Below, in pieces: positions 5,962 to 59,609 of a stretch of 64,000 nt of DNA. This DNA is from an uncultured Candidatus Binatia bacterium (GTDB taxonomy: Bacteria > Desulfobacterota > Binatia > Bin18): assembly GCA_965200965.1 (NCBI GenBank), contig OZ241744.1, positions 2,976,001 to 3,040,000 on the forward strand, in the 5' to 3' direction. The position numbers and the translations under genes are program-made. The notes under the pieces were generated by a model. That model saw nothing but the letters and a program-made list of their open reading frames with translations. It was not told where the DNA came from and ran no database searches. Every line of letters begins with the position of its first letter. The stretch's first letter is position 1.

Positions 5962-5991
5962 GTAGGGTGGCCGGCCTTCATCCGGCCACCC
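5962..5991 (+). repeat. GTAG-type REP-like palindrome between convergent genes
   Basis: GTAGGGTGGCCGG-ccttcat-CCGGCCACCC; may also act as a terminator. Confidence 0.6.
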
Positions 5992-6016
5992 CCATTTTTG
6001 GGCGGATAGCAGCAGA

Positions 6017-7192
6017 TTATCCCACCTCAATGCTTGGGAGTCTCTCAATAATCCGAGCTTGCAAAACCTTGTATCCTTGAGCGCCAGAAAACTGGCCGCT
6101 AACGCCCTCAGAACCACTTTTCCAAAAGTCGGCACCCTCAACAAAGACGCCTTCTGAATTGCGTCCCCCCATTTCAAGCGGTGTCCTCATAATTTCAGCG
6201 TATCTAGCCGGATCAAAGACAGAGTAACCTTTCGATACCATTATAGCCAACACGTTGACCAGGACCGCATGTAGCTGGGTCACCCCCAATGTACCCTGCA
6301 AGTTGTACCGTTCAGGGTCCTGCATAGCCTCTGGAAGAATCTGCTTGATGCCTTCCCAATATGCCTGGAGAACCTTGGATTGCTGGTCTTTATCGCCGAG
6401 TGCCTGGAAAACCCCAGGCAGTTCCACCAAAGGTTTCAGCGACTTCGTCATACCATTGTTCTTGATCAAAGTATCACCCTTTTTGTCGCCCGGGTATCGT
6501 ATTTTGCCGCGCCAAATTTCCGATTTCGAGAGTTTGTCGGTCAACTTACCGGCCTCTACTATCCACGCCTTCCCGGTTTCGATCAGATGGTCTCTAACCG
6601 CTTCAGATTTCTCCGCCCGTTGCCCCAGCAACTCATACGCCAAGCCGGTAGGTATACTCTTGGCGTTGCTGTTGACCACATGAAATTCGTTCATTTCCCC
6701 GTCTCGGTCTGCGCCAAGCAGGCACACGAACGGCAAAGAGTAGCCTTCCCATTCCTCAGCGTTTTCTTTGTTTTCCTTGAAGAGAGAAACCGACGCTTCT
6801 ACTCGATGCTGACCGTCCACCACATACAGGCGGTCGTCAGGGGAAAGCACCAACTCAGTCTGCTCGGCCAAAATGTTGAGGTGGCAGCTCTCATTGAAGT
6901 CTCTCAGGTTCAGGAGAATCGCTGTGGGAAGGTCAACTCGACGATCTTCCAAATCCTTCTTGAGAGAATTGACCCGACCCGAGGTAGGCATACGTTGATA
7001 CCCTTCTTGATTGTCGGGCGTTCGACGATCAACCTCGAAAAGTTTGGCAAGGACTGGAACTGGTATGGAACCGATGGCGATTCGCCTGCCTTTTTGCGAG
7101 ATCCAATCGTTATCGTTATACCTGAGATCCGGTAGCTCTTGCACAATAATGGGTAGCCGGTAAGCCTCCGTGGTCGTTTTCTGAATAGCCAT
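6017..7192 (-). CDS. DGQHR-domain protein (DndB/ParB-like fold)
   Basis: GYQR, PTAILL, VVDGQHRV, EFHVVN motifs; AAAGGAGG RBS before MAIQK. Confidence 0.85.
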   Translation of the reverse strand: MAIQKTTTEAYRLPIIVQELPDLRYNDNDWISQKGRRIAIGSIPVPVLAKLFEVDRRTPDNQEGYQRMPTSGRVNSLKKDLEDRRVDLPTAILLNLRDFNESCHLNILAEQTELVLSPDDRLYVVDGQHRVEASVSLFKENKENAEEWEGYSLPFVCLLGADRDGEMNEFHVVNSNAKSIPTGLAYELLGQRAEKSEAVRDHLIETGKAWIVEAGKLTDKLSKSEIWRGKIRYPGDKKGDTLIKNNGMTKSLKPLVELPGVFQALGDKDQQSKVLQAYWEGIKQILPEAMQDPERYNLQGTLGVTQLHAVLVNVLAIMVSKGYSVFDPARYAEIMRTPLEMGGRNSEGVFVEGADFWKSGSEGVSGQFSGAQGYKVLQARIIERLPSIEVG

Positions 7193-7511
7193 TGCAGTTC
7201 CTCCTTTCTGGCATCTTGATTCAGGATAGCGATTTGAAAACACGCTGTCACTATTTGATTCGTTATTTTGCATCAAAAATTTGATTCACGAAGAGCTTTG
7301 ACGTTCTGTCGCCATCTGGTTCGCCTTGACTCTCCCCGCAAGAATTGCGACCTTGGGAGAGACAAGGAGGTCCGGTCATGTCCCCCAGACTGACGCCATT
7401 GGTCAAAGAGATGACGGACGGCGTGATGTTTGACATTTCGCAGACCGGCTGGGTCGGCCCCGACCATCGCCGTGAGAAGCAATCCTGAGCAGTCTGGTAA
7501 TAAAGGGAGGA

Positions 7512-8381
7512 ATGAGGATGAACACATCTCAGATTGGCGTGGTCAAAGACTTGTTTCGTTATCCGGTGAAATCCATGCTGGGGGAACGTCTCGGCGAGCT
7601 TGACATCGGCCCTACGGGCGTACTTGGAGACCGCGCCTACGCCCTGCGCGAGGCCAACGGCCGGGTAGTGACGGCCAAGAAGTGGGCGCAGATGTTGGAG
7701 TTCTCGGCCCGCTATGAAACCCCACCCACCACGGCTGGCTTGGCCCCGCTCAGCATCAGCCTGCCGGACGGGCGGCAGGTGCAGGCCGAGGCTCCGGACG
7801 CCTCGGCCACGCTGTCCGACGCGCTCGGACGCCAGGTCACGCTCGAGCGCGCCCAGAGCGAGCAGCGCAACAAGGCCGAGATTGATCCGGCCACGGTCTT
7901 TGGTGACGTGCCGCTCAAAGAGGCCGCGCCTGAGTTTGCCGCCAAGCCGCTGCCCGACTTTTTCCCCCTGCCGCCCGGCACCTTTTTTGACTCGGCCAGC
8001 ATTCATGTCCTGGCCAGCGGTACGCTGGCCCATGTGGCCACGCTGATTGGCGACGACGCGCAGCTTGAGGCGCGCCGTTTTCGGCCCAATATCGTCGTTG
8101 AGACCGCCGCCGGACAAGCGGGCTTTGTTGAGGATGACTGGCTGGAAGGCAGCCTTGAGATCGGCCGGCAGCTCACGATCGTCCAGCTCCAGCCGGCCCT
8201 GCGGTGCGTGATGACCACCCACCAACAGGAGGAGCTCAAGCGCGATATGCGGATTCTGCGCACGGTCGCCCGGCAGCATCACAACAAGCTCGGCGTGTTT
8301 GCCGCGGTCGGCAGGCCCGGTACAGTCCGGGTTGGCGATCCGGTCTTCCTGCTCAAAGACCCGTCCGGCACAAGATCATGA
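7512..8381 (+). CDS. MOSC domain protein
   Basis: LFRYPVKSMLGE, GDRAYA, RRFRPNIVV, RCVMTT. Confidence 0.9.
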   Translation: MRMNTSQIGVVKDLFRYPVKSMLGERLGELDIGPTGVLGDRAYALREANGRVVTAKKWAQMLEFSARYETPPTTAGLAPLSISLPDGRQVQAEAPDASATLSDALGRQVTLERAQSEQRNKAEIDPATVFGDVPLKEAAPEFAAKPLPDFFPLPPGTFFDSASIHVLASGTLAHVATLIGDDAQLEARRFRPNIVVETAAGQAGFVEDDWLEGSLEIGRQLTIVQLQPALRCVMTTHQQEELKRDMRILRTVARQHHNKLGVFAAVGRPGTVRVGDPVFLLKDPSGTRS

Positions 8382-9112
8382 CACTTGACGAACAGATTCG
8401 ACAGGCCAGAATTGACCTGACCGCGGCCCTGCGCTGGGCGGACCGGCTGGGGCTTGGCGAGGGCATCTGTAATCACTTCAGTCTGGCCGTGCCCGGCGCG
8501 ACCGATCGTTTCCTGCTCAACCCCCAGGGTCTCCACTGGTCCGAACTATCCGTCAGCGACCTGCTCAGCGTCGATGTGGCCGGCCACATCGTTGAAGGCC
8601 ACGGCCAGACCGAGCCGACCGCGTTTTTTATTCACTCCTGCATCCACCTCAGCCACCCGTCAGCCAAATGCGTCCTCCACACCCACATGCCGTATGCGGC
8701 CGCGTTGTGCGCGCTTGACCGCGGCCGGCTTGAATGGGTCAGCCAGCAATCGCTGCGGTTCTACGAGCGGGTCGCGTATGAACACGAGTACAAGGGCCTG
8801 GCCCTTGACGAGGCCGAGGGGCAGCGGATCAGCGACAAGCTCACCACCAACACAGTGGTCTTTCTGGCCAACCACGGGGTGATCGTCACCGGGCCGGATG
8901 TGGCTACCGCGTTTGACGACCTGTACTATCTGGAGCGGGCATGCATGGTCCAGGTCCTGGCCCAGTCCACCGGCCGGCCGCTCAAACGCCTCCCCGCCGA
9001 GGTCTGCCGGCGCGCCCGCCGGCAGTTCGAGACCGAACGCACACAGGCCCACTCGCACCTCGAAGCCATCAAACGGATGCTGCGCCGCGAGACGCCCGAG
9101 TTTTTGGAATAG
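8378..9112 (+). CDS. Class II aldolase/adducin family protein
   Basis: EGICNHFS, LHTHMPYA, LANHGVIV; ATG 8378 overlaps the upstream stop. Confidence 0.9.
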   Translation: MTLDEQIRQARIDLTAALRWADRLGLGEGICNHFSLAVPGATDRFLLNPQGLHWSELSVSDLLSVDVAGHIVEGHGQTEPTAFFIHSCIHLSHPSAKCVLHTHMPYAAALCALDRGRLEWVSQQSLRFYERVAYEHEYKGLALDEAEGQRISDKLTTNTVVFLANHGVIVTGPDVATAFDDLYYLERACMVQVLAQSTGRPLKRLPAEVCRRARRQFETERTQAHSHLEAIKRMLRRETPEFLE

Positions 9113-9180
9113 GGTCTGGCCAAGCCTGTTGTTGCCAGCCGAGACAATGCTATACACCTGATAAGAAGGAGGGACGATGT

Positions 9181-10182
9181 ATGGCAAAAGACTTTACCAT
9201 CTGCGTAGGAACGGTCGGGGCGGGCGTGTGGTACAGTTCAAACGGCGGGGACAACTGGCGCAGGAGCAAAATGAACCTGCCCTTTGCCGATGAGCCGGGT
9301 GAAATCCAAATACGGGCCCTGGCCGTTTCGCCCCACAACCCGAGCCAGATCTATGCCGGCTCTGAGGCCGGCATCTACCGCAGCAACGACCGGGGAGCGA
9401 GCTGGGACTATATTGAGTCGCCCATGTACGGCAAGCAGATCTGGTCGGTGGCGGTCAGCCCGGACGATCCAAACGAGGTGTGGACCGGCACCAAACCGCC
9501 GGCCGTGTACCGTACCACAGACGGGGGCCAGACCTGGGAGCGGGCCGCGGTCGAGACGGCCAAGGAATGCCTGGCCGGTGCTCCCAAGGTGACGAACATT
9601 ACCTTTGACCCCCGGGACTCCAGAACGCTGTGGGTTGGGGTTGAGATTGACGGCGTATATCGCAGCCAGGACCACGGGGAGAGCTGGGAGCGTCTGCCCG
9701 ACCTCGGCGACAGCGTCCTCAACCAGGATGTCCACGGCCTGACCATCAGCAACGGGCCGGAGCCGAAGGTGCTGGTGTCAACGCCGGACGGCATTTGGTC
9801 CAGCCCCAACGAGGGAAAAAACTGGGCCTTGCACGGCTTTCCCCGTTTTTACGAAAAAGACCAGATTTCCTACTGCCGCGGCATAGCCGTCAAAGCCGAC
9901 GACCCGGATACCATCTTTGTCGGCAACGGCGATTTTGTGCCGGGCAAGATCGGGGCCATCCAGCGTTCGACCGATGGGGGCAGAACCTGGCGGGCGGCCG
10001 ACCTGCCGGTGACGCCGAACTCAACGATCTACTGGTTTGGTACCCATCCGGCCGACCCGGACATCATCGTGGCCAACAGCCTGCACGGCTATGTGTATAC
10101 CAGCACCAATGGTGGCACCTCGTGGGAAAAGGTTGAGCGTGAGTTTGGCGAGATCCGGGCCATCGCCTGGACACCGAACTAG
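9181..10182 (+). CDS. BNR/Asp-box beta-propeller protein
   Basis: Repeated S-x-D/N-x-G-x-[ST]-W boxes (SNDRGASW, TTDGGQTW, STDGGRTW); AAGGAGG RBS. Confidence 0.85.
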   Translation: MAKDFTICVGTVGAGVWYSSNGGDNWRRSKMNLPFADEPGEIQIRALAVSPHNPSQIYAGSEAGIYRSNDRGASWDYIESPMYGKQIWSVAVSPDDPNEVWTGTKPPAVYRTTDGGQTWERAAVETAKECLAGAPKVTNITFDPRDSRTLWVGVEIDGVYRSQDHGESWERLPDLGDSVLNQDVHGLTISNGPEPKVLVSTPDGIWSSPNEGKNWALHGFPRFYEKDQISYCRGIAVKADDPDTIFVGNGDFVPGKIGAIQRSTDGGRTWRAADLPVTPNSTIYWFGTHPADPDIIVANSLHGYVYTSTNGGTSWEKVEREFGEIRAIAWTPN

Positions 10183-10243
10183 CCCACCTGGGAGCGGCCA
10201 CCCGCTGTCCCGCCAGCGCTGAACTTCGCCCCACGGGATTTAT

Positions 10244-10669
10244 GAGATGGACGGCTTTGACGAGGCCACACAACGCCTGCCGAATGACCGGGACATGGCC
10301 CGCATCCTGAAGCGCTTCCACGGGACGATGCAGGCCGGAGCCACCGGCTGGTCTCGCGCAGCACGCTCCAGTGCGACTACGGCGGCACACCGATGATTTC
10401 GGACATCCTGCCCAAGGACTTCTGTCTGACCCTGGCCCGCAAGCCGGGCAAAAGCGGCGGGGACGGCTTTATCCGGATTACGCAGTCCACGGTCGAGGCC
10501 GGCATTTGGTATGAACAGCGACATCGACTTCAGCACCCGGATGGTATCGGAGAGCGGCTGCTCGGTGCTGTTCACCGCCATTGTGGCCAACGGCGAGCCG
10601 CTTTTTGAGGATGGGAGTTGCACCGGGGCAACCCTGGGCAAACTCCTGCGTAACGGCCAGGCCGGGTAG
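10244..10669 (+). pseudogene. Remnant of an N-acyl-D-amino-acid deacylase-like amidohydrolase
   Basis: Fragments in different frames: MARILKRFHGTMQAGATGWS, QCDYGGTPMISDIL...DGFIRITQ, and C-terminal IVANGEPLFEDGSCTGATLGKLLR*. Confidence 0.6.
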
Positions 10670-10735
10670 AGCCGGTCCGGCAGCCTGCCCCCCGGGCCCT
10701 GCCTGGCCCGGGGGTGCCTGTATTGGAGGAACGCT

Positions 10736-11704
10736 ATGGACATGACACACCGGCTGGACCCGGAACTGACCGGCCCGCTCAACACTTGGCTCAAAGTTAC
10801 CGGCGGCGGGATCAGGCTGCACGACATTCCAGCCGCACGGCGGATGATGGACGACCTGGTGGCAGCCCAAATGGCCAAGGTGGCACCGATTGAGGGGATC
10901 AGCGCTGAGGACCATCAGGTGCCCGGTCCCGAGGGTGGACCCGAGGTCTTTGTGCGGGTCTATCAGCCCGAGGACCGACCGGCCAGCCTGCCCGCCCTGG
11001 TATGGATTCATGGTGGCGGCTATGTCCTGGGCAGTGTTGAACGGGACGATGTGCTGGCCAGACACCTGTCTGGGGTCGGGCAGTGCCTGGTGGCCTCGGT
11101 CGAGTACCGGCTGGCCCCCGAGCATCCCTTTCCGGCCCCGGTTGAGGACTGCTACGCCGCGCTGAAGTGGCTGGCGGCCCACAGCGATGACTTTGGGGTC
11201 GATCGGTCGCGGATCGCCATTGGCGGAGCGAGTGCGGGCGGGGGGCTGGCCGCGGGTCTGGCCCTGCTGACCCGCGACCGGGCCGAGGTCGAGCTGTGCT
11301 TTCAACTGCTGATCTATCCCATGATCGACGACCGCAACGTTGCCGCGGCCAGCCACACACGGCCGGATACCCTGGTGTGGAGCCGGGAGAACAACCTGAT
11401 GGGCTGGCACGCCTATCTCGGTCGTGAGCCGGGCGGGCCGGAAGTCTCGCCGTATGCCGCCGCGGCCCGGGCGACCGATCTCCGCGGCTTGCCGCCGGCC
11501 TATATTCCGGTCGGCGACCTGGACCTGTTCCTGGATGAGAATATGAGCTACGCACAGCGGCTGCTGGCGGCCGGGGTGCCGACCGAACTGCATATCTATC
11601 CGGGCGGCTTTCACGGCTTCAACGGCTTTGTGCCCGGGGCGCAGATCTCGCAGCGCTTTAATACCGAGCGCGACAAGACCCTCAGACGTATGCTCCACCG
11701 CTGA
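10736..11704 (+). CDS. Alpha/beta hydrolase, HSL-family esterase
   Basis: WIHGGG, YRLAPEHPFPA, GASAG nucleophile motif, HGF. Confidence 0.93.
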   Translation: MDMTHRLDPELTGPLNTWLKVTGGGIRLHDIPAARRMMDDLVAAQMAKVAPIEGISAEDHQVPGPEGGPEVFVRVYQPEDRPASLPALVWIHGGGYVLGSVERDDVLARHLSGVGQCLVASVEYRLAPEHPFPAPVEDCYAALKWLAAHSDDFGVDRSRIAIGGASAGGGLAAGLALLTRDRAEVELCFQLLIYPMIDDRNVAAASHTRPDTLVWSRENNLMGWHAYLGREPGGPEVSPYAAAARATDLRGLPPAYIPVGDLDLFLDENMSYAQRLLAAGVPTELHIYPGGFHGFNGFVPGAQISQRFNTERDKTLRRMLHR

Positions 11705-11794
11705 CCGCCCCCGCCCGTCCGGCGTCGGCCCGGCCCTCGTATCCGCTCGCCCATAGTCGCCGGGTTCGGCGAATGGCGGGACGGCCCTTTCGGC

Positions 11795-17632: not shown

Positions 17633-18082
17633 ATGAAAAACGCTGAACGCGCCGGGGCAGTTTCTCTCGTACTCGTAAGCGTAGGGGTGTCCGCTCTTTT
17701 TGCGTACATAGCGGCCACGCGTGTCTCGACCAACCTGGAGAGCGTCCTTTTTCAGGTTTTTACCTTATGTACGGGACTGACTGGTTCGTTCATTTTCGGC
17801 CGCCAATCGGCCAGCGATGCAGCCAAGGCAATCATCAGACCGCACGCGCGATCCGCGTTCCGCCGTCTCCTCTCCCTCTATTCCAGTCTCCGTCGGGTAG
17901 CGCTGGCCATAGAAGGTTGCAAGTCTCCTGCCGAATACCCAACAACGCTTGCTACGCTCAAAGCAATTGTTGTTGAACAATTGGCTACAGCGGATGACGC
18001 GCTGGAAGATTGGGTGGATATCGTTCCAGAAGAGGTGCAAGAATTGCGAGAAAAATTATTGACAGCGAGGGATGGACAATGA
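17633..18082 (+). CDS. Hypothetical protein with two N-terminal TM helices
   Basis: Two hydrophobic segments then a helical region; lower GC; ATGA-coupled to the next gene. Confidence 0.65.
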   Translation: MKNAERAGAVSLVLVSVGVSALFAYIAATRVSTNLESVLFQVFTLCTGLTGSFIFGRQSASDAAKAIIRPHARSAFRRLLSLYSSLRRVALAIEGCKSPAEYPTTLATLKAIVVEQLATADDALEDWVDIVPEEVQELREKLLTARDGQ

Positions 18083-18570
18083 CCAAAGCGATCCACGGGA
18101 AAGTTGCCCGAGTTCTTAACTCGCGTGAAGTTGCGCTCAATATCGGCTCCGCAGACGGGGTGGCCGTCGGCCTGTACTTCGACATCATGGATGCGAAAGG
18201 GGAAGATATCACAGACCCTGATACGGGTGAAACATTAGGGTCCATCCAACGTACAAAAGTCAGGGTTCAAGTTATTCATGTTCAAGAGAAGTTGTCTCTC
18301 GCGGCTACATACAGGCAGAGAAGAGGCGGCAGCAGGAGACTGTTTAACCCGGGTCTCGCGGAGTTTCTCATGCCACAAAAATGGGTGAATGAATATGAAA
18401 CCTTGAAATCGCAAGAGAAAACGTGGGAGCCGATGAGTGAGCAAGAGAGCTATGTAGAAATCGGAGACCCCGTTGTTCAAGTCCTTGACAATAGGGAGGG
18501 AGTAGCAAGGGAAACTGAGTTGCCTCAGAACCTCGCAACCGCCTCTACTGAGTCCCGGAGGTCGGATTAG
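18079..18570 (+). CDS. Hypothetical protein with FlgT C-terminal-like beta domain
   Basis: GKVARV...VALNIGSADGV-VG...ITDPDTGETLG pattern; stop TAG lies inside a REP. Confidence 0.6.
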   Translation: MTKAIHGKVARVLNSREVALNIGSADGVAVGLYFDIMDAKGEDITDPDTGETLGSIQRTKVRVQVIHVQEKLSLAATYRQRRGGSRRLFNPGLAEFLMPQKWVNEYETLKSQEKTWEPMSEQESYVEIGDPVVQVLDNREGVARETELPQNLATASTESRRSD

Positions 18571-18585
18571 CGCAGCGTAACCCGA
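18557..18585 (+). repeat. REP, left-type copy
   Basis: GGAGGTCGGATTAGCGCAGCGTAACCCGA, matching 26065-26093. Confidence 0.8.
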
Positions 18586-18608
18586 TCGACGGGCTATCGT
18601 CACCAGAC

Positions 18609-18887
18609 ATGGACAACCCGCCACACCCCGGGGGAATCGTGAGACGGCAGTGTCTTGACGCACTCGGCCTTTCTGTGACGCGGGCGGCCCAAGGCTTGGG
18701 GGTCACACATAAAGCGCTGTCCGATCTGGTCAACGAAAAATCCAGTATCTCGGTTGAAATGGCCTTACGCCTCTCCAAGGCGTTCGGCTCAAGCCCCGAG
18801 ACCTGGATCGGCATGCAGATGGCCTATGATCTCTGGCAGGCACGAGAGCAAGCCGCCCACCTCACGGTTGAGAAGTTCACGGCCTAG
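18609..18887 (+). CDS. higA: HigA-family antitoxin (HTH), no adjacent toxin
   Basis: NPPHPG, LSVTRAAQGLGV, ISVEMALRLSKAFGSSPETW, MQMAYDLWQA. Confidence 0.9.
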   Translation: MDNPPHPGGIVRRQCLDALGLSVTRAAQGLGVTHKALSDLVNEKSSISVEMALRLSKAFGSSPETWIGMQMAYDLWQAREQAAHLTVEKFTA

Positions 18888-18895: not shown

Positions 18896-18927
18896 GTCGG
18901 ATTACGCCCGCGGTGAATCCGACCTAC
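18896..18927 (-). repeat. REP, right-type (inverted) copy
   Basis: GTCGGATTAC...GAATCCGACCTAC, which reads GTAGGTCGG on the minus strand. Confidence 0.8.
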
Positions 18928-19394: not shown

Positions 19395-19408
19395 CCAGGC
19401 CGACAGCC

Positions 19409-19430
19409 CGGATTAGCACAGCGTAATCCG
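19409..19430 (+). repeat. REP-derived palindrome in the array spacer
   Basis: CGGATTAGCACAGCGTAATCCG. Confidence 0.75.
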
Positions 19431-19505
19431 ACGGGCGCGTTGCTGCTTGGCCGTGCCGGCCGCTTCCTCTTGACGGGCCGGACGGTGTGCAGTAAAAGGG
19501 AGCGC

Positions 19506-19976: not shown

Positions 19977-19990
19977 CCAGGCCGACAGCC

Positions 19991-20012
19991 CGGATTAGCA
20001 CAGCGTAATCCG
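19991..20012 (+). repeat. REP-derived palindrome in the array spacer
   Basis: Identical to 19409-19430. Confidence 0.75.
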
Positions 20013-20087
20013 ACGGGCGCGTTGCTGCTTGGCCGTGCCGGCCGCTTCCTCTTGACGGGCCGGACGGTGTGCAGTAAAAGGGAGCGC

Positions 20088-25460: not shown

Positions 25461-25495
25461 GAGGGCTTGCCTTCTCCGCCCTTGTTTTTTAGTCT
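25461..25495 (+). promoter_or_regulatory. Putative sigma70 promoter; copy 1 of a 21-bp direct repeat
   Basis: GAGGGCTTGCCTTCTCCGCCC; TTGCCT-N17-TAGTCT upstream of the TA module. Confidence 0.55.
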
Positions 25496-25552: not shown

Positions 25553-25756
25553 ATGATGAATACGATCCTGGCCGTCGTCCGTGAAGGCAAAATCGTCCCC
25601 TTGGAAGCGATGCAGCTCCCTGAAGGAACGCGGGCTTTGGTCACACTCCTGCCTGAAGATGAGGCGAGCTTCTGGCGAGCGGCAAGTGCGTCTTCATTGG
25701 AGGGGGTATGGGGGAACACAGCGGACGATGTCTATGCCGAGCTCCTTGAAAAATGA
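25553..25756 (+). CDS. Putative antitoxin (DUF104-like N-terminus)
   Basis: Small acidic ORF (AVVREGKIVPLE...LPEGT, W...DDVY) overlapping the toxin start. Confidence 0.7.
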   Translation: MMNTILAVVREGKIVPLEAMQLPEGTRALVTLLPEDEASFWRAASASSLEGVWGNTADDVYAELLEK

Positions 25757-26078
25757 GATTGTGCTTGTCCGCTATCCGTTCTCCGACCTCAGCAACTCAA
25801 AGGTTCGCCCTGCCGTCGTCGTCAACGCGCCTCATCCGTCCCAAGACCTCCTCATTGTCCCGCTCACAAGCAGGACCCCAGCATTGCTCAGGGGTGAGTT
25901 TGTCCTCGCTGAATGGAAGAGAGCAGGTTTGAACGTCGAGACAGCCGTCAAGCGTGGTCTCTTCACCATAGATCAAAAGCTGGTGAGAAAGAGTATCGAA
26001 ACCCTGCCGAAAGAGGATGCTGACAAGCTGGAAAGATCATTATGTGAATGGTTGGATTTGGCCTGTAGGTCGGATTAG
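25734..26078 (+). CDS. PemK/MazF-family toxin
   Basis: IVLVRYPFSDLSNSKVRPAVVV, IVPLTS; stop TAG lies inside a REP. Confidence 0.88.
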   Translation: MPSSLKNEIVLVRYPFSDLSNSKVRPAVVVNAPHPSQDLLIVPLTSRTPALLRGEFVLAEWKRAGLNVETAVKRGLFTIDQKLVRKSIETLPKEDADKLERSLCEWLDLACRSD

Positions 26079-26129
26079 CGTAGCGTAATCCGGCATGTTG
26101 GCTTACACTTGACGGTTAAGCCGACCTGC
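26065..26129. repeat. Complete REP doublet (REPIN-like)
   Basis: GTAGGTCGGATTAGCGTAGCGTAATCCGGC followed by inverted GTTGGCTTAC...TAAGCCGACCTGC. Confidence 0.85.
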
Positions 26130-26191
26130 GGCTGACACACAGCACGCAGAGGCCGGCATTGGGCCGGTTCCTGCAAACTTCAGGGCTTGAG

Positions 26192-26226
26192 GAGGGCTTG
26201 CCTTCTCCGCCCGCATCTGGTAGGCA
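26192..26226 (+). promoter_or_regulatory. Copy 2 of the 21-bp direct repeat; putative promoter of the GTPase gene
   Basis: GAGGGCTTGCCTTCTCCGCCC identical to 25461-25481; TTGCCT-N17-TAGGCA. Confidence 0.5.
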
Positions 26227-26235
26227 GGGCTGATT

Positions 26236-28467
26236 ATGGAGATGGAGAGAGCGCAACGAATCAGTGATATCATCTCGAAGCGGAAGCCCTTCGTTTCGAA
26301 AATTGAAGCCGTGAAGGGCAATCTCAATTCTCTGGGGACAGCGTTCGTCGCCTTGGAAAGACAGCGGGATAAACTCCTTGACCTCCTCGGTGGTGACGAT
26401 AAAGATACTGTTGAAAACCTGCGAAAAATTGAGGTCAATTCTCTTCCGCGAGAAATCGTTGAACAGACCAGTTCCCTTGACAGACTCAAAAAACGCTTTT
26501 CGCGCAAGACCCTCAACATTGCGGTTATCGGACGGGCCCGCCAGGGCAAGAGCCGCCTGCTGCAAAGTTTAAGCGGGCTTTCACCCACAGAAATTCCCGA
26601 CGGCAGCGGCCAACATTGCACCGGGGTGCGGAGTACCATTTTTCACGACGATCGAGCGTCTGAAACTTCTGCTGAGGTCGTTTTTCACACGGAGCGGTCT
26701 TTCCTGGAGGAGGTGATTTACCCTTACTACGAGGAGTTGGAGTTAGGCCGAAAACCTACCTTCGTGGACGATTTTTCCCGGGATCCCCTGCCACCGTTAT
26801 CGGACGGTAGCAGTGCAGCGGATAAAGCCAAATATGAGCATTTACAGCGCTACAAGACCCACCTTGATAGCTACGGTGGCTTGTTGAACGAATCTCCGCG
26901 GTCCATTCCGGGCAAGGAAATCCCCACCTACGTCGCTCAGGACGGGGGGAACTATCGTTATATGGCGGTTCGAGAGGTAAAAATTACCTGCCACTTTCCT
27001 AAAGAAGACGTGGGGCAGATTGCCTTGGTTGATCTCCCCGGGTTGGGAGATACCGGTATTGGTGATGCGGAACGATTGATCAAAACCCTGAGCCAGGACG
27101 TTGACTTCGTGCTCTTCGTCAGAAAACCGAATCCGAGCGGGGACTTTATCGCCGATGTCGACATCAGCCTGTATGATACCGCCCGTTCGGCGCTGAGGGA
27201 AATTCCGCTGGAAGAGTGGTCTTTTATGGTGTTCAACACAATTGACCCCTCTTCCAGAGGAGAACAAGGCGACAACTCAGATTTGTGCAGAGAGCTTTCT
27301 GAAAAAGTAAATGAAGGCTCAACCATAAAGGTTTCCGAGACTATCATCGCTAACTGCGCTGACCCTCAATCGGCGTCAACAGGTATCCTGGACCCCTTAC
27401 TCGACTACTTGGAGGGGCACATCACAGCCCTTGATGAAGGGTACCTCTCAGCTTGTCTCGACAAGCACGAGCGGCTGCATCGCACAATTAACGCGGAATT
27501 AGAGAAGGCCCGGACTGCTCTGGGTAAGGCAGAATCAGACGATGTAGAATTCGTAGCGCTCTTTCGAGAGTTGTGGAGAAATCTGAATCGCGGGCTTACA
27601 GCCTTACTTCGAAGATTCGAAGGGATCCGTGAGGCGGAGAACAGTCAGTACAGACAAGACTTTCAAAAATCTGTGGCAGCAATCATAAAGGAGTGTCGTG
27701 ACAGCACAAATTCGATTATTCCAACTCTGGAGCATATCGAAACAACAATAGACACCGAAAACTCTGCCCAGAGTGCTTACAACGTCTACCTTGACCAGAC
27801 TCGGGCTCACCTGTCGCAAAAATTCTTGAAATTGGATGAGGGCTTGACGCACTCTTTTGACATGATGAAAGCCCAGGTCTCCGAAGTTCTTATAGAAAAG
27901 GGACGCATGGGAGGACTGACCGATTCCAGAGGGCCGAAGTTTCTCGAAGAAATAAAAAATCAACTTGAAGATATCAAGGAACATACGAAAGAACTAAAGG
28001 AAGGTTTTGAAATCCTTTCCGATTTCACGCTATCCTACAGAGGATTTGCGCAGCACCGCATTCGCAAGCGTTTTGACGACCTTACCACCGATACGTCCCG
28101 GCGTAAGCTCAATTCATTCTCCTTGTCGAGGATAATAAAACGTCAGGAGGTCTCGGACGCAGAGAAGATTCGAGAGAATCTGGAATTCCTATACAACGAA
28201 GCCGTTTCCAAATGCGAGATTGCGCTGAAGGAGTTGCTTCCTGAGCCTTCTGAAGCGGCCTTTGCAATCGTCGAAGAATTTAACGATCGCGTTTTAAGGG
28301 CGGAAAACGTTCAGGACGAATGGCGGATATTCCTCCGCCTAGAGCGTCATAGGATATGGCCGGAAAAGTTCGGACTCATCGGCGAAGGGACCAAACTGCG
28401 TGAGGAGTGGTATTCCATAATAGAGCGCATCGAAAAGGCGAATAAAGAAGACCCCCTACTCGCTTAG
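26236..28467 (+). CDS. Dynamin-like GTPase with long helical C-terminus
   Basis: G1 GRARQGKS, G2 HCTG, G3 DLPG, G4-like FNTID; lower GC. Confidence 0.8.
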   Translation: MEMERAQRISDIISKRKPFVSKIEAVKGNLNSLGTAFVALERQRDKLLDLLGGDDKDTVENLRKIEVNSLPREIVEQTSSLDRLKKRFSRKTLNIAVIGRARQGKSRLLQSLSGLSPTEIPDGSGQHCTGVRSTIFHDDRASETSAEVVFHTERSFLEEVIYPYYEELELGRKPTFVDDFSRDPLPPLSDGSSAADKAKYEHLQRYKTHLDSYGGLLNESPRSIPGKEIPTYVAQDGGNYRYMAVREVKITCHFPKEDVGQIALVDLPGLGDTGIGDAERLIKTLSQDVDFVLFVRKPNPSGDFIADVDISLYDTARSALREIPLEEWSFMVFNTIDPSSRGEQGDNSDLCRELSEKVNEGSTIKVSETIIANCADPQSASTGILDPLLDYLEGHITALDEGYLSACLDKHERLHRTINAELEKARTALGKAESDDVEFVALFRELWRNLNRGLTALLRRFEGIREAENSQYRQDFQKSVAAIIKECRDSTNSIIPTLEHIETTIDTENSAQSAYNVYLDQTRAHLSQKFLKLDEGLTHSFDMMKAQVSEVLIEKGRMGGLTDSRGPKFLEEIKNQLEDIKEHTKELKEGFEILSDFTLSYRGFAQHRIRKRFDDLTTDTSRRKLNSFSLSRIIKRQEVSDAEKIRENLEFLYNEAVSKCEIALKELLPEPSEAAFAIVEEFNDRVLRAENVQDEWRIFLRLERHRIWPEKFGLIGEGTKLREEWYSIIERIEKANKEDPLLA

Positions 28468-28488
28468 GAGGGAGAAAGTGAGGAGCAT

Positions 28489-28929
28489 ATGCCCAAAAAC
28501 TCGATCCAAAATCAACTGCACACCCCTCTGGGAAGGGCTTTGCGTGATGCTGGCATGGTGAACTGGGGAGAAGAGCAACAAGTCCGGCCGGGAAAGCTCT
28601 ATGGTTGGACGACGACGGGTCAGAATGGGCTAGGTGTGGGTGTATATGCGCGAGAAGCGACGGACAAGGTTGTCTCGCTGTTCCACATCAGGACTTGTGA
28701 GGAGGATGAAGTCAAGTTCGCCACTCGTCGGCATATAGCCGACTATCTCCCGGATATTCCATCTGAGGTGCTGGATTCCTGGATGGACTTCATTGAGACC
28801 TTGGAGCCTGTGCGACGCACGATATCTGACCAGCAGTACCTTGTAGTGCAACTGTCCCGGGTTGAGGAGAACGTTGACAGGATGATCGAGTTGATGAAGC
28901 CATTGTATCGTACAATGGATTCGAAATGA
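28489..28929 (+). CDS. Hypothetical protein, probable partner of the dynamin-like GTPase
   Basis: GAGGAG RBS, 21 bp after the GTPase, similar composition, short C-terminal coiled coil. Confidence 0.65.
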   Translation: MPKNSIQNQLHTPLGRALRDAGMVNWGEEQQVRPGKLYGWTTTGQNGLGVGVYAREATDKVVSLFHIRTCEEDEVKFATRRHIADYLPDIPSEVLDSWMDFIETLEPVRRTISDQQYLVVQLSRVEENVDRMIELMKPLYRTMDSK

Positions 28930-28956
28930 TAGCGTACAGGTTGGATCAGTTGAGTT

Positions 28957-28989
28957 GTCGGCTTACGCCTGACGGCTAAGCCGACCTAC
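28957..28989 (-). repeat. REP, right-type copy
   Basis: GTCGGCTTACGCCTGACGGCTAAGCCGACCTAC. Confidence 0.88.
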
Positions 28990-29315
28990 GCCCAGCACGC
29001 CGGGTCGTGTTGGAGGCCGGCGACATACTCCTTGAGCGACCACAGCAATCCGGGCCGGTCGCCCTGGAACAAGTGCCGCTCCAGACGCTCCGCAACCGCG
29101 GCGGCCGCATATCAAAGGCCATTTCCGCGGCGCACGAGGCATGGTGGGAATCCTCGTCGCCGGTCAGGTAGACTTTTCTCACGGCCGCCCATTCGGCAGG
29201 GCTGAGGACCGCCCCGACCTGCCGATCAAGCGGGCCGGTCAGATGTCGCCAGTTCGTCGGCCAAGCCTTCCATCTGCCTGACCTCCTCCTCCGGTTTGAG
29301 TAGCCCCCGGGTCAC
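28986..29315 (-). pseudogene. Remnant of a SIS-domain (GlmS/AgaS-like) sugar isomerase gene
   Basis: Frameshifted fragments LKPEEEVRQMEGLADE / RKVYLTGDEDSHHASCAAEMAF / VAERLERHLFQ; most of the middle is missing. Confidence 0.55.
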
Positions 29316-29451
29316 TCCAGACCGTGCATGATATTGACCTGTCCGCCCCAAGCGCCGCGCTCAAGACAGCGTCCTACAAACGTCCCGCCCTTGCCAGCCC
29401 CCGGCTCGGCGGAGTAATGAACACAGGAGCACGAATCAGAAGGAGGATCAC

Positions 29452-33581: not shown

Positions 33582-33585
33582 AGGG

Positions 33586-53285: not shown

Positions 53286-53286
53286 A

Positions 53287-54389: not shown

Positions 54390-55442
54390 ATGCTGGAGGG
54401 CCTGCACATACGGAATTACCGCGTCTTCAACGACCTCACAGTTGACCATTTGAGGCGCATCAACCTTATTGCTGGCAAGAACAATGCCGGCAAGACAAGC
54501 CTGCTGGAGGCGATTTTTCTGCTGTCCGGGGCGGGGAATCCGCAAGTGGTGCCGACCATCATGAATTACCGCGGGATCGAGTCGGTGACTGGACCTCCGC
54601 AAACAGTAGGGGAAATCTTCTGGAAGCCGCTCTTCTCTGCGCTGGATATGAACAGGACCGTCGAAATCACCGGGCAGCATACATCCGCCGGTCCGCTGAC
54701 TCTGACAATCGTGTTGGATAAGCCCCACACCAGCGAACTGCCCCTTAATGCTCCCGTTGAGACGCACCTGGAAAACCTTTCCGGCGCATCCCAACTCACG
54801 CTTTCGTTCAGCAGCCACTCAACGGGAGAAGTCAAGGGTCACATGCGCGTGACCGGACAAGCGGTTCAGCTTGAGCCGCCTAATGTGGAATTGCCGTTTC
54901 CCGGAAGGTTTCTTATGTCTCGTGGGGGAAATCTCACAGCAGATGCCGGACTGCTGGGAAGGCTGAGACAACAGAAACAGGGCGAGCTCGTCCTGGAAGC
55001 ACTCCAAATCATTGAACCGAGACTGCAAAGCGTTGAGGACAATTCCGCCAGTGGCGCGCCCCTGATCTGGGGCGATATCGGCTTAGCCGAACTGATACCG
55101 CTGACGGTCATGGGCGAGGGCATGACCCGCATCGCCCGGCTGATCCTCGCCATAGCCTCCACGCCGGGCGGTGTTGTTCTGGTGGATGAGATCGAAAACG
55201 GCCTGCATCACTCTGTGCTGCCCAAGGTCTGGAAAGTCGTTGATACCGCGGCCAAGCGGTTCAACACCCAGATATTTGCGGCCACACACAGCTTTGAGTG
55301 CGCGGAGGCAGCGCATGAAGCCCTCTGCGCGGACGACTTTCGCCTGCACCGGCTTGAAGTCAGTGGCGCGGAGAACCGCTGCGTCACCTATGAGCCGGAG
55401 GAAATTGAGGTCGCGTTTCGACAGAATTTGGAGATCCGCTGA
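54390..55442 (+). CDS. ABC-type ATPase (AAA_15/AAA_21)
   Basis: GKNNAGKT, MGEG, VLVDEIENGLH, ATHS; GAGGAGG RBS. Confidence 0.88.
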   Translation: MLEGLHIRNYRVFNDLTVDHLRRINLIAGKNNAGKTSLLEAIFLLSGAGNPQVVPTIMNYRGIESVTGPPQTVGEIFWKPLFSALDMNRTVEITGQHTSAGPLTLTIVLDKPHTSELPLNAPVETHLENLSGASQLTLSFSSHSTGEVKGHMRVTGQAVQLEPPNVELPFPGRFLMSRGGNLTADAGLLGRLRQQKQGELVLEALQIIEPRLQSVEDNSASGAPLIWGDIGLAELIPLTVMGEGMTRIARLILAIASTPGGVVLVDEIENGLHHSVLPKVWKVVDTAAKRFNTQIFAATHSFECAEAAHEALCADDFRLHRLEVSGAENRCVTYEPEEIEVAFRQNLEIR

Positions 55443-55444
55443 AT

Positions 55445-56061
55445 ATGGCGCAACCAACAGAAATCAAATCCAGCTGCTTGTTGAGGGCAACGACCAGCGC
55501 AACTTTTTTGAGGCGTTCATTGACCATCTCTCGCTTACAGATGTTCAGGTTCAGAACTTTGGAGGCGTTGACGACCTGCGATCCTTCCTGTCAATACTTG
55601 TGAAAAGGCAAGGATTTCGTGACACTGTGCAGAGTGTCGGCATCGTCCGGGACGCGGAAACCTCCGCTCAGGCCGCGTTCCAAAGCGCTCAGTCTTCGTT
55701 GAGGAAGGCCGGGCTGGTCGTACCGAACCGGCCCGAAGAACGCGCCGGCAGCAGCCCGGCAGTGGCGGTGCTGATACTGCCCGACGGGAACCAGCCGGGG
55801 ATGCTCGAAACCTTGCTCTGCCAGAGCTTTGCGGGCGACCCGGAGGAAGCCTGCATTGATGACTTTTTCCGGTGCGTTGAGGCTTTGTCAGGCGTGTCTA
55901 TCCAACGCCCAGACAAGGCGCGTGCGCGAGCCTACTTGGCGACAAAGCCCGATCCGCACCTTTCCGTAGGCGTGGCGGCGAGGCGGAGCTACTGGAATCT
56001 CAACCATCCCGTTTTTGAGCGGATTCAGCAATTCCTCAGCCGGCTGTCGGCTTACGTCTGA
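55445..56061 (+). pseudogene. DUF3226-like TOPRIM protein, apparently frameshifted near its start
   Basis: LLVEGND, IVRDAE, GMLETL motifs; ATG 55445 (MAQPTEIK) is out of frame with them; stop TGA lies inside a REP. Confidence 0.65.
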
Positions 56062-56078
56062 CGGCTAAGCCGACCTAC
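56046..56078 (-). repeat. REP, right-type copy
   Basis: GTCGGCTTACGTCTGACGGCTAAGCCGACCTAC. Confidence 0.88.
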
Positions 56079-56098
56079 GACTGAACCCGGAGCAGGAT

Positions 56099-58678
56099 AT
56101 GGCGAGAGCAAGGAAGAAGGCCGCCAAGAACATTGAGGTCTACACCCACCCCGGCAAGGAGCGGGTGAACAACCCGCCGGTCGGCCTTGTGACGCCCGAC
56201 ACCGACAAGGACGCCGGCCGGCAGACCTACGCCTACGACCCGCATCTTGACCCGCAGTTGCAGTGGGCCGGCAAGGCCGAGCATACCGCATTTGTGGTAC
56301 CGACCGTCTCTCTGCATGTCCATGAGCGGATTGACCCCCAGGCCATCATTGAGGCCGTGCGCCGGCAGGGCGGCGGCGCGGACGACCCGCAGATGTCGAT
56401 GTTCTCCAGTCAGGAGGAGAACCCGCCCATCCGCAAAGCCATTGAGTTCTACCAGCACAAACATAAGTGGACCAACCGGCTGGTTGCCGGCGACAGCCTG
56501 CTGGTGATGAACAGCCTGCTGCAAAAAGAGCGCCTCGCCGGCCAAGTCCAGATGGTCTACTTGGACCCGCCCTACGGCATCCGCTACGGCTCGAACTTCC
56601 AGCCCTTCATCAACAAGCGCGATGTCAAAGACGGCAAAGACGAAGACCTGACCCAGGAGCCGGAGACCATCCGCGCCTTCCGCGACACCTGGGAACTGGG
56701 CATTCACTCCTACTTGGCCTACCTGCGCGACCGCCTGCTGCTGGCCCGCGAGCTGCTGACCGAGAGCGGCAGCTGCTTCGTGCAGATCAGCGATGAGAAT
56801 GTCCACTTGGTTCGCAATATGATGGATGAAATATTCGGCGTGACGAACTTCATGTCCCTGATCTCATTCAGAACAAAAATTCCGCTCAACGCTGCCCATC
56901 TTCCAAACATAGCCGATTACCTGATCTGGTACGCGAAGGACAAAACACGGGTCAAGTTCCATCGACTGTTTGGACCTCGGAACTATGGCGAGGACACGAT
57001 GTTTTCGTCTGCTCTCCTTCCTGACGGTAGCGTAGTCAAAGCTGGCGCGGTTCCCGGTGAACACAGGGGAGCGGCGCGTTACTTTAGTCTGATTGATTTG
57101 ATGGCGACCGGGTACACCGAATCCTGTCATTTTGAATTTGAGTTGGAGGGCCGACGCGCCTATCCCAATCCGACGACAAGTTGGAAAACCACGCCTGAAG
57201 GAATGGAAAAGCTCCTCATGGCTGAGCGCGTCCGTTGGCAAAGGACTGTTCCACGATATGTTTTTTATGCGGACGATTATCCGGTTATGGAGATGACCAA
57301 CCAGTGGACGGATACACAGGGGGCCAGCGGGAAAGCCTATGCAGTGCAAACGGCAGTCAAGGTTATCGAACGCTGCCTGCTGATGACCACCGACCCCGGA
57401 GACCTGGTCTTTGACCCGACCTGTGGAAGCGGCACGACCGCCTTTGTGGCCGAGCAGTGGGGCCGACGTTGGATCAGCTGCGACACCTCGCGCGTTGCCG
57501 TCACCCTGGCCCGGCAACGCCTGATGACCGCCAGCTTTGACTATTTTGAGCTCGCCCGCCCGGACGAAGGCGTGGGCGGCGGGTTTCGGTATAAGACCGT
57601 GCCGCATATCACCCTCGGCTCTATCGCCAATAACCCTGATATCACAGCAGGCATGACGCGCGACGCGATTGACGCCGCCATTGCCCGCCATGCACCACCA
57701 CAGGAAACGCTCTACGACCAGCCGTTCCGCAACACCAGAAAAGCCCGCGTCACCGGCCCGTTCACCGTTGAGGCGGTACCCGCGCCGGTTGTCAAAACGG
57801 TGGACGAACTGCTCGAGGGGGAGGACACGCCACGCGAGGCCGACAACTCGGTGGCCCGCTCTGGCGAGACGCTGCGTCAGGACGAGTGGCGGGACGAACT
57901 GCTGAAAACCGGCATTCGCGGCAAAGCCGGCCAGCGCATGGCCTTTGTCCGGCTCGAACCCCTGCCGGCGACACGTTGGCTGCACGCCGAGGGCGAAACC
58001 CGGCCCGAGGCCGCAGGGGCGGAGCGCAGCAGCGGTCGTGTGGTGGTGTCCTTCGGCCCGGACCATGCGCCCCTGGAGCAACGCCAAGTTGAACACGCCT
58101 GGGAGGAGGCCCGCAGCCTGCGCCCCAAACCGATGTTGCTGGTCTTTGCCGCGTTTCAGTTTGACCCCGAGGCGGCCAAGGATATTGACGAACTCAAACC
58201 TGAGCTGACCGGGATGCAGTTTCTCAAGGTCCAGATGAACGCCGACCTGCTGACCGATGACCTCAAGAAAAAGCGGGCCAGCAATGAGAGCTTCTGGCTC
58301 ATCGGCCAGCCGGATGTGGAGCTTGAGTAGGATGGGTCGGGTGCATATCGCGTCTCGGTGCTCGGCTTTGACTACTACAACACCAAGACCGGCGGGGTAG
58401 AGTCTGGCGGGGCGGACAAGATCGCCATGTGGCTGCTTGACCCCGATTATGACGGGCGCAGCCTCTTCCCTCGCCAGGTGTTTTTCCCCTGGGCCGACGG
58501 CCGCGACGGCTGGGCACGGCTGGCCCGCAGCCTCAAAGCCGAGATTGACCCCGAGCGGATTGAAGCCTACCGGGGCACGGTCTCGCTGCCCTTTACGCCG
58601 GGCATCCACCGCCGCATTGCCGTCAAGATCATTGACGACCGGGGGATTGAAAGCCTCAAGGTGGTGGAGATTGCCTAG
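56099..58678 (+). pseudogene. mod: Type III RM Mod subunit with in-frame TAG at 58328-58330
   Basis: YLDPPYG, QISDEN, FDPTCGSGTT; the same frame continues after TAG to IAVKIIDDRGIESLKV. Confidence 0.85.
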
Positions 58679-58705
58679 CCGTGGGAGGCAAAAGGAGATT
58701 ATCCA

Positions 58706-59536
58706 ATGGCAAAACCGATGAAGGCCCAGGCAATAGAGCGTCTACAGAAAGCACTGGATGCGATACCTGCATTAGAGGGATTGGACACTGATTCCCCGGA
58801 GTTCAAGAGGTGGTGGAGAAGCACAGAAATCGCTATCACCAACACATTCGGGGACGAATCATATCATATTCGGGAATTCTACGATACCGATTATTTTTCC
58901 TGCTTTGCTTCACCCCCTCCCGGGGAGAAGGAGAAAACCTTGAAATCAGCAACCGCACTACTCCAATCAATGATTGAGGAAGTCGAGGAGTATTGGGAAG
59001 AAGACACGGAGACAACAAAAGTGCCCAAAAAACTTAAATTACAGCAACCCGGGGAAGATCGGAAAAAAGAACATCAGCCTCCGCCGAACACCAGAGAAGT
59101 CTTCGTTATTCACGGAAGGGACGAGGCAGCCGAGCAAAAAGTGGTGAGATTTCTCGAAAAACTGGACCTCACGCCAGTGATATTGCACGAGCAGCCGAAC
59201 TAGGGCCAGACAATAATCGAGAAGTTCGAGCAACACGCGCAAGTCGGGTTTGCCGTGGCCCTGTTGACGCCGGACGATGGAGGCGCGCTTCAGGGTGAGG
59301 CGGAACATATCAAACCCCGTGCCAGACAGAATGTTGTGTTTGAGTTGGGGTATTTTCTCGGACGCCTTGGCCGAAAGCGGGTCTGTGCCCTGGTCAAAGG
59401 AATCCCAGAAATTCCGTCAGACTATGCCGGGGTGGTCTATATTCCACTGGATGATTACGGGGGCTGGGAGAGAAAACTTGTCAAAGAGCTAAAGGAAGCC
59501 GGCTTTGAGATTGATGCGAATCGTATAGTGGAGTGA
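58706..59536 (+). pseudogene. TIR-like nucleotide-binding protein (Cap12/Pycsar-type TIR) with in-frame TAG at 59201-59203
   Basis: VFVIHGRD...LHEQPN*GQTIIEKFE...LLTPDD...RARQNVVFELGYF...PSDYAG in one frame. Confidence 0.88.
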
Positions 59537-59576
59537 AGATAATGAGCGCCCATGTTGCCATTCTACAAGGCGGGGT

Positions 59577-59609
59577 GTCGGCTTACGCCTGACGGCTAAG
59601 CCGACCTAC
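59577..59609 (-). repeat. REP, right-type copy
   Basis: Identical to 28957-28989. Confidence 0.88.

What the first reader, a model, noticed from the sequence alone, without database searches (positions are those of the whole stretch)
5962..59609. GTAG REP palindromes mark the 3' ends of accessory/defence cargo: candidate REP-delimited cassette system
Seen: one REP family (GTAGGTCGG-ATTA/CTTA...TAATCCGAC/TAAGCCGAC) occurs at 18557, 18896, 19409, 19991, 26065, 28957, 56046 and 59577, with a related GTAG hairpin at 5962. Every copy I found abuts an accessory gene (FlgT-like ORF, higA, DUF1640 copies, MazF, dynamin partner, DUF3226, TIR), and I noticed none between metabolic genes. In four cases the REP supplies the stop codon (18570 RRSD*, 26078 CRSD*, 56061 LSAYV*, 28986 minus strand). 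Established: GTAG REPs are substrates of HUH-family RAYT/TnpA-REP enzymes, and integron attC sites occupy a similar 3' position. Inference: these REPs may act as recombination sites that capture and shuffle defence genes, an integron-like system without IntI.
Basis: partly seen in the sequence, partly recalled or inferred. Interest (0 to 1): 0.82.

Follow-up and report, generated by a model that had tools for sequence, protein, structure and literature searches.

The report
Orphan REP hairpins beside defence genes
The hairpins are a known kind of small mobile DNA repeat (REP/REPIN) whose transposase gene is missing from this sponge-associated bacterium; they do sit beside defence and toxin-antitoxin genes far more often than chance, but they come and go without those genes, so they are likely ageing leftovers in variable DNA and not joints of an integron-like system.

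Summary
The eight REP copies are real, plus one missed at 26097. The 5962 hairpin is not a family member, and no gene uses the claimed 28986 stop.

The defence bias holds genome-wide: 17 of 39 REP sites have a defence/TA neighbour, against 4 of 65 random spacers.

The cassette reading fails its tests. Orientation is mixed (11 same, 14 opposite). At 7 sites a close relative keeps both flanking genes without the REP. Cargo homologues rarely carry a 3' REP (DUF3226 0/16, HigA 0/29, MazF 1/12, NYN 3/25). Cargo swaps in conspecific strains break 240-500 nt from REPs. There is no RAYT and no IntI here.

The cognate RAYT, flanked by the same REP, is in congeners. In one of them the recently amplified unit lies beside defence genes at background rate (2/20). 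The identical REP flanks RAYT homologues in several phyla.

Best reading: a decayed, RAYT-less REPIN population that likely persists in, or arrives with, exchanged defence DNA. About 11 relative-versus-window breakpoints lie near REPs, so a capture role is not excluded. The scan noted orphan REPs and repeat-bounded arrays before, on other DNA.

The parts
18557..18586 (+). REP, short-loop (A) type, decayed (GGAG tag); supplies the stop of ORF 18010-18570; 22 nt before higA
   Evidence: 38.9 bits; fold z -0.3; more decayed copy at the same place in G007
18609..18887 (+). higA antitoxin between two REPs
   Evidence: TIGR02607 E 9e-31; 0 of 29 homologous loci have a REP within 100 nt
18896..18927 (-). 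REP, long-loop (B) type, 8 nt after higA
   Evidence: 37.7 bits; G007 has a REP here in the opposite orientation
19403..19432 (+). REP remnant without GTAG, after DUF1640 copy 1
   Evidence: 30.2 bits; part of a 582-nt tandem duplication
19985..20014 (+). Identical REP remnant after DUF1640 copy 2
25461..25481 (+). 21-nt direct repeat, left copy; bounds the antitoxin-MazF-REPIN module
   Evidence: exact repeat with 26192-26212
25749..26078 (+). MazF/PemK toxin whose stop lies in the REP; most homologues stop 12 nt earlier
   Evidence: PF02452 E 3.5e-8; 1 of 12 homologous loci (the G007 orthologue) has the REP at the stop
26065..26129 (.). REPIN doublet: A(+) 26065-26094 and B(-) 26097-26129
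   Evidence: 45.8 and 25.9 bits; fold z -3.7
26192..26212 (+). 21-nt direct repeat, right copy, 62 nt past the REPIN, before the dynamin-like gene
   Evidence: a listed piece of an X5 contig starts at 26192
26236..28929 (+). Dynamin-like gene (743 aa) and 146-aa partner
   Evidence: PF00350 E 4.7e-5, below cut-off; contigs of X5 and X13 skip 28450 to 29381 with 178 other letters
28957..28989 (-). REP, B type, 27 nt after the partner gene
   Evidence: 44.5 bits; fold z -5.7; lies inside the stretch replaced in X5 and X13
56046..56078 (-). REP, B type, at the 3' end of DUF3226; it replaced the ancestral TAG and supplies a new stop at 56061
   Evidence: absent in G007 and X5 with DUF3226 and mod both kept; 0 of 16 homologous loci have a REP
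59577..59609 (-). REP, B type, 40 nt after the split TIR gene, followed by a duplicated 5' end of res (59627-59725)
   Evidence: 44.5 bits; G007 has a different REP doublet here; res duplication
5962..5993 (+). Single-copy GC-rich hairpin with T run, terminator-like; not a member of the REP family
   Evidence: one match in the genome at up to 5 mismatches; GTAG belongs to the 17-nt duplicate of the CoA-transferase end

Best explanation
These hairpins are REP/REPIN mobile repeats whose RAYT transposase gene is absent from this genome, and their position beside defence and toxin-antitoxin genes likely reflects decay and hitchhiking in variable DNA, not cassette recombination. Shown: the same REP flanks a 171-aa RAYT in congeners; here the RAYT is missing, 33 of 39 sites are single copies, and REPs are gained or lost without their neighbours. 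Inferred: (1) a RAYT once inserted REP doublets just behind stop codons, sometimes replacing the stop; (2) after RAYT loss the doublets decayed and were deleted, most completely from core spacers; (3) defence and TA regions, which tolerate insertions and are exchanged among symbionts that carry the identical REP, kept or brought in copies; (4) cargo itself is inserted or swapped by homology-based recombination at gene ends and short direct repeats, with or without a REP nearby.
For: Cognate RAYT (NF047646, 190 and 182 bits, cut-off 80) lies between inverted copies of this REP in G001, G024, G043, G006, G057. None here: PF01797 0, NF047646 0, tblastn best E 0.06; one contig, 99.3% complete. Doublets: 6 of 39 sites here vs 28 of 35 sampled in RAYT-bearing G006 (p=2.5e-8). 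In G006, 20 of 35 sites share outer arms (a recently amplified unit); 2 of these 20 have a defence/TA neighbour and 13 lie between two metabolic or transport genes, while 7 of the 15 arm-less sites have a TA/Uma2 neighbour. The arms are not found in this genome (best match 13 nt). REP-only differences against G007 at 7 of the 31 sites with matching DNA and against strain X5 at 56042-56075. Homologues with a REP at the 3' end: DUF3226 0/16, MazF 1/12, HigA 0/29, NYN 3/11 in relatives and 0/14 in metagenome contigs. Conspecific swaps break at 28450/29381 and insert 468 nt at 59853. A module with no REP (4137-5948) is also bounded by a gene-end duplicate. The same REP model matches 26 of 63 RAYT-homologue loci, whose titles include Binatia, Nitrospirales, Terriglobia, Entotheonella and Gammaproteobacteria. 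REP neighbours have lower GC3 than other spacers' neighbours (16/39 vs 332/1947 below 0.62).
Against: The bias is strong: 2 of 39 sites between two metabolic genes vs 31 of 65 controls. Selective loss from core spacers is inferred, not shown. At about 11 sites the G007 alignment ends within 60-80 nt of a REP with different cargo beyond, and at 456158 and 2633675 it resumes inside the REP arm. G007 has the dynamin 5' fragment before MazF and a single chimeric REP where the window has REPIN-dynamin-REP. NYN has a same-strand REP within 60 nt of its stop in four genomes with unalignable spacers. TA bias persists in RAYT-bearing G006 (9/35 vs 4/65, p=0.01, control from this genome). I found no case of cargo and REP transferred together from a non-orthologous site, so import is not shown.
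Confidence: 0.62

Rival explanations
1. REPs act as capture and recombination sites. A RAYT (present earlier, or in donor cells) nicks at C|T beside the hairpin and joins foreign single-stranded DNA there, so defence and TA genes are deposited and reshuffled at REPs, across phyla that share the REP.
For: TnpA-REP joins any attacking strand ending in C to the cleaved REP substrate (PMC8266576, passage). About 11 G007 breakpoints lie near REPs. Dynamin/MazF order differs in G007 with a chimeric REP at the junction. NYN recurs with a REP behind it. The REP-RAYT-iREP unit shows homology ending at the REP ends in different contexts. The insert at G000 2634490 is bounded by CT on both sides.
Against: No RAYT here. 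Orientation 11:14. Most cargo homologues have no REP. Conspecific swaps break 240-500 nt away. REPs sit at gene ends, where alignments at 90% identity end anyway. Fresh REPINs in G006 show no defence bias (2/20).
Confidence: 0.14
2. REPs are kept by selection as 3' RNA hairpins (terminator or mRNA stabiliser) behind newly acquired genes that lack their own terminator, while core genes do not need them.
For: 31 of 39 sites lie within 120 nt of a gene 3' end; intact copies fold well; REPs are reported mostly downstream of ORFs and proposed as RNA elements (PMC3733652).
Against: A 3' position is the norm for all REPs. Copies are decayed or deleted in close relatives. No expression data were examined.
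Confidence: 0.14
3. REPs are passive repeats: RecA-type recombination or slippage between two nearby copies deletes or duplicates what lies between them, with no dedicated enzyme.
For: G007 chimeric REP at the MazF end; tandem units that contain a REP (DUF1640; FRG/TPR and three G007 repeats).
Against: It explains some junctions but not why REPs are there. The tandem units carry hundreds of bases of other homology. Only one clean case was seen.
Confidence: 0.1

Closest known systems
REP/REPIN elements with RAYT (TnpA-REP) in REPtrons (PMC3116915, PMC8266576, PMC5581495; passages read)
   Same: GTAG tag before a ~30-nt palindrome, two types in inverted doublets, cognate RAYT flanked by the same REPs in relatives, 3' intergenic position, singles as remnants, reduced numbers after RAYT loss (10.1101/2021.07.10.451892, PMC3686654).
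   Different: RAYT is absent from this genome; the surviving copies are strongly biased to defence/TA neighbours; the REP-RAYT-iREP unit lies in different contexts in relatives and the REP is identical across phyla, whereas RAYTs are described as vertically inherited and non-jumping.
GTAG-tagged REP superfamily (Di Nocera et al. 2013, PMC3733652; passages read, supplements not seen)
   Same: GTAG tag; REP ends supply stop codons to flanking ORFs; mostly downstream of genes.
   Different: I could not check whether this sequence is one of the 24 listed GTAG families.
Integrons and attC cassette arrays (features recalled, apart from one passage in PMC8266576)
   Same: A folded palindrome at the 3' end of accessory, often defence or TA, genes.
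   Different: No IntI, no fixed orientation, no array of promoterless cassettes, the repeat does not travel with its gene, and breakpoints are not confined to the repeat.

Membership tests
REP/REPIN-RAYT | 20-50-nt palindrome preceded by GTAG | tested here: met
   fold z -4.9 and -5.7 for two intact copies
REP/REPIN-RAYT | Many dispersed, mostly intergenic copies above chance | tested here: met
   53 copies above 18 bits vs 0 in two controls; up to 113 strict matches in congeners
REP/REPIN-RAYT | Inverted doublets (REPINs) | tested here: met
   6 of 39 sites here, 28 of 35 sampled in G006
REP/REPIN-RAYT | Cognate RAYT flanked by the same REP | tested here: met
   in relatives G001, G024, G043, G006, G057
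REP/REPIN-RAYT | RAYT present in this genome (needed for an active system) | tested here: not met
   the copies are orphans
REP/REPIN-RAYT | Cleavage and strand transfer at C|T by the RAYT | not testable with these tools
   needs purified protein
Integron-type cassette system | Dedicated integrase (IntI) in the genome | tested here: not met
   two PF00589 hits only, both score as XerC/XerD-type; TIGR02249 120 bits vs cut-off 265
Integron-type cassette system | Site in fixed orientation to its cassette gene (recalled) | tested here: not met
   11 same, 14 opposite among 25 single REPs with a 3' end nearby
Integron-type cassette system | Site travels with its gene | tested here: not met
   DUF3226 0/16, HigA 0/29, MazF 1/12, NYN 3/25
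Integron-type cassette system | Gain or loss breakpoints inside the site | tested here: inconclusive
   conspecific swaps break away from REPs; about 11 G007 breakpoints are near REPs, 3 inside an arm
Integron-type cassette system | Excised circles | tested here: inconclusive
   only contigs were available; the 26096-28956 joint has 30-32 letters a side, equal to a REP doublet elsewhere

The most novel reading that the evidence does not exclude
One REP sequence shared by co-living symbionts of several phyla, together with a RAYT cassette that itself moves, works as a community-wide landing pad: RAYT nicks beside the hairpin and ligates incoming defence and toxin-antitoxin DNA, giving integron-like capture with no integrase and no fixed orientation. 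This genome would be a fossil record of it after RAYT loss.
Probability: 0.12. Interest if true: 0.8.

Novelty: new member of a known kind. Interest (0 to 1): 0.3.

Why it matters
As read here it is a modest result: a REPIN family in a sponge-symbiont lineage, and a caution that repeats beside defence genes can be decay survivors. Two points could interest REP specialists. RAYT function is an open question, and this family gives a natural comparison of RAYT-bearing and RAYT-less relatives with a measurable defence bias. The REP-RAYT-iREP unit also appears in different contexts and its REP is identical across phyla, against the view that RAYTs do not move. If the capture reading were true it would give RAYTs a host benefit and add a new route for spreading anti-phage genes.

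Tried and rejected
1) RAYT remnants in the genome: none.
2) Excision joint 26096 to 28956 in runs X5 and X11 (26092 in X1, X13): each side is only the REP (30-32 letters) with a short spacer, so it is a REP doublet from another place and was rejected.
3) Direct repeats as a signature of REP insertion: 16 nt or more at 8 of 39 REP sites vs 24 of 300 control spacers; short-range repeats at 2 of 39 vs 16 of 150; several are tandem paralogues, so no rule.
4) Integrase islands in REP loops, a lead from earlier notes: only XerC/XerD-type recombinases here.
5) Rfam: no match in the window.
6) G006 MazF homologues: 2 of 8 have a REP near the stop, both at orthologous sites, so no sign of joint transfer.
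7) Absence of the antitoxin-MazF-REPIN module in X5 is inferred only from contig coordinates and lower depth; no joint was listed.
8) A metagenome scan with the dynamin-like protein returned no answer, so its wider contexts were not examined; within the family one split homologue without REP was found.
9) Eight of 39 REP sites had no matching DNA in the 26 G007 stretches fetched and were left out of the G007 tally.
10) Literature searches for REP-bounded defence cassettes returned no such paper in the held library.
Full report
1. The observation. The window is G000:C1:2976001-3040000, in a 3.62-Mb single-contig genome. Runs that hold the DNA and name a habitat are mostly sponge metagenomes. 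Record titles of the closest RAYT matches name Candidatus Binatia. All eight listed REP copies are present and a ninth lies at 26097-26129. A position-weight model built from 38 strict matches finds 53 copies above 18 bits in the genome and none in the reversed or complemented genome. There are two types, short loop (A) and long loop (B), which pair as inverted doublets. Three stop-codon claims hold; the one at 28986 has no ORF of 30 aa or more. The 5962 hairpin occurs once, and its GTAG is the stop of a 17-nt copy of the CoA-transferase gene end.

2. Is the defence bias real? I merged the 44 copies above 22 bits into 39 sites and annotated their neighbours with Pfam (genes from my own caller). 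As a control I drew 65 random spacers with at least one 3' end from 19 stretches of the genome. Classes were assigned by hand. With hits at E 1e-9 or better, 17 of 39 REP sites have an RM, TA, TIR, FRG, NYN, DUF3226 or GmrSD neighbour, against 4 of 65 controls (p=7e-6); at E 1e-5 it is 22 of 39. Sites cluster, so I also took the first site of each of 22 clusters: 7 of 22 vs 4 of 65 (p=0.005). Two of 39 sites lie between two metabolic genes, against 31 of 65 controls. The bias is real.

3. The enzyme. The genome has no Y1_Tnp, no NF047646 and no tblastn remnant. Its only two tyrosine recombinases score as XerC/XerD-type. The cognate RAYT is in relatives: 171 aa, NF047646 above cut-off, between inverted copies of this REP in G001, G024, G043, G006 and G057. 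G005 and G014 have 72 and 63 strict REP matches but no match to this RAYT.

4. A RAYT-bearing relative. I sampled 35 sites in G006 (20 stretches chosen from the first 100 of 113 listed matches, plus two sites from earlier loci). Twenty-eight are doublets, against 6 of 39 here. Sixteen lie between two metabolic or transport genes, the same rate as the random control. Nine have a TA/RM neighbour. Twenty share outer arms and look recently amplified: 2 of these have a defence neighbour and 13 are metabolic. Of the 15 without arms, 7 have a TA/Uma2 neighbour. The arms are absent from G000. So the actively spreading unit shows no defence preference, and the older, heterogeneous copies do. The control comes from G000, not G006, which limits this comparison.

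5. Do REPs bound cassettes? Against G007 (about 90% identical, 26 stretches fetched), 31 of 39 sites had matching DNA. At 7 the flanking genes are adjacent in G007 and only the REP differs (1054794, 1744155, 1750695, 2634490, 3032046, 3141093, 3576273). At window 56046 the ancestral TAG, kept in G007, G002, G041, G001 and G043, was replaced by the REP, and conspecific X5 lacks the hairpin with both genes intact. Against this, about 11 sites have different cargo beyond a breakpoint within 60-80 nt of the REP, three inside an arm. One has cassette geometry: G007 carries a dynamin 5' fragment before MazF and a single chimeric REP where the window has REPIN-dynamin-partner-REP. But contigs of X5 and X13, from two studies, keep the dynamin gene in place and skip from 28450 to 29381, about 500 and 390 nt from the REP. 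X13 and X14 insert 468 nt at 59853, 244 nt from the REP. Orientation to the upstream gene is 11 same, 14 opposite. Cargo homologues rarely have a REP at the 3' end: DUF3226 0 of 16, MazF 1 of 12, HigA 0 of 29 within 100 nt, NYN 3 of 11 in relatives and 0 of 14 in metagenome contigs. The NYN recurrence is unexplained. Cargo modules are often bounded by copies of gene ends or promoter-like DNA: 21 nt around MazF, 17 nt around the REP-free module at 4137-5948, 99 nt of res. That points to homology-based integration (inference).

6. Mechanism. Shown: REP identity, RAYT absence, decay, defence bias, REP-only indels. Inferred: past RAYT-driven insertion behind stop codons; decay and deletion after RAYT loss; survival or import in variable DNA. 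Import is plausible because the same REP model matches 26 of 63 RAYT-homologue loci from Binatia, Nitrospirales, Terriglobia, Entotheonella and Gammaproteobacteria, often letter for letter, and REP neighbours here have lower GC3. I did not find a direct case of gene and REP moving together.

7. Comparison with what is known. Papers seen: PMC8266576 (abstract, introduction, passages): GTAG recognition, C|T cleavage, no evidence of tnpA-REP mobility. PMC3733652 (passages): GTAG REPs often supply stop codons and lie downstream of ORFs; its supplementary family tables were not seen and may already list this REP. PMC3116915 (passages): doublets replicate, singlets are remnants. 10.1101/2021.07.10.451892 and PMC3686654 (passages): REPs decline after RAYT loss; RAYTs rarely move. 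PMC5581495, PMC6006769 and 10.1101/2024.07.17.603846 (passages): RAYT function open; no circles from 8 E. coli REP regions. Integron features are recalled. Searches found no paper on REP-bounded defence cassettes in the held library.

8. Verdict. A new member of a known kind: an orphan REPIN family with a real but probably passive defence bias. The integron-like reading fails three membership tests and two are inconclusive. Interest 0.3; the capture reading keeps about 12%.

Noticed in passing
L189-L193 (G001, G024, G043, G006, G057): The ~600-bp REP-RAYT-iREP unit is about 90% identical in DNA across two genera (75% in G057), with homology ending at the outer REP ends and different flanks; it looks mobile although RAYTs are described as non-jumping.
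   Followed up: partly
L221-L283: The same REP, often letter for letter, flanks RAYT homologues in records titled Binatia, Nitrospirales, Terriglobia, Entotheonella and Gammaproteobacteria: 26 of 63 loci.
   Followed up: partly
G006, e.g. L081:15170-15335: A longer unit of about 135 nt (REPIN plus shared outer arms, often ending in CTAG) is amplified at 20 of 35 sampled sites, mostly in core spacers; some copies have 21-27-nt flanking duplications.
   Followed up: partly
window 4120-4136 and 5949-5965: AAA_21 ATPase plus partner module is bounded by a 17-nt duplicate of the CoA-transferase 3' end, with a terminator-like hairpin after the second copy.
   Followed up: partly
window 25461-25481 and 26192-26212: 21-nt direct repeat that reads like a -35 box and spacer (by eye) bounds the antitoxin-MazF-REPIN module.
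   Followed up: partly
window 56099-63246: Type III RM locus is a hot spot: mod middle region swapped among strains, split TIR gene, duplicated res 5' end, small gene pair, and a 468-nt insertion site at 59853.
   Followed up: partly
L093, L095, L096, L098: NYN-domain genes in four genomes have a same-strand REP 5-60 nt after the stop with unrelated spacers; unexplained.
   Followed up: partly
G000:C1:2202583 and L157:17610-18180: At a REP beside nuoN, G007 has a 570-nt insert that reads like higA (by eye) and this genome keeps only its last codons.
   Followed up: no
G000 genome-wide: Three short-repeat families with about 225, 130 and 87 copies look like CRISPR repeats; Cas3 and Cas6 genes are present.
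   Followed up: no
G000:C1:1917423 and L144:5500-7300: Only a 54-aa Hsp90 fragment remains beside a decayed REP doublet; G007 has a 596-aa Hsp90-like ORF there.
   Followed up: no
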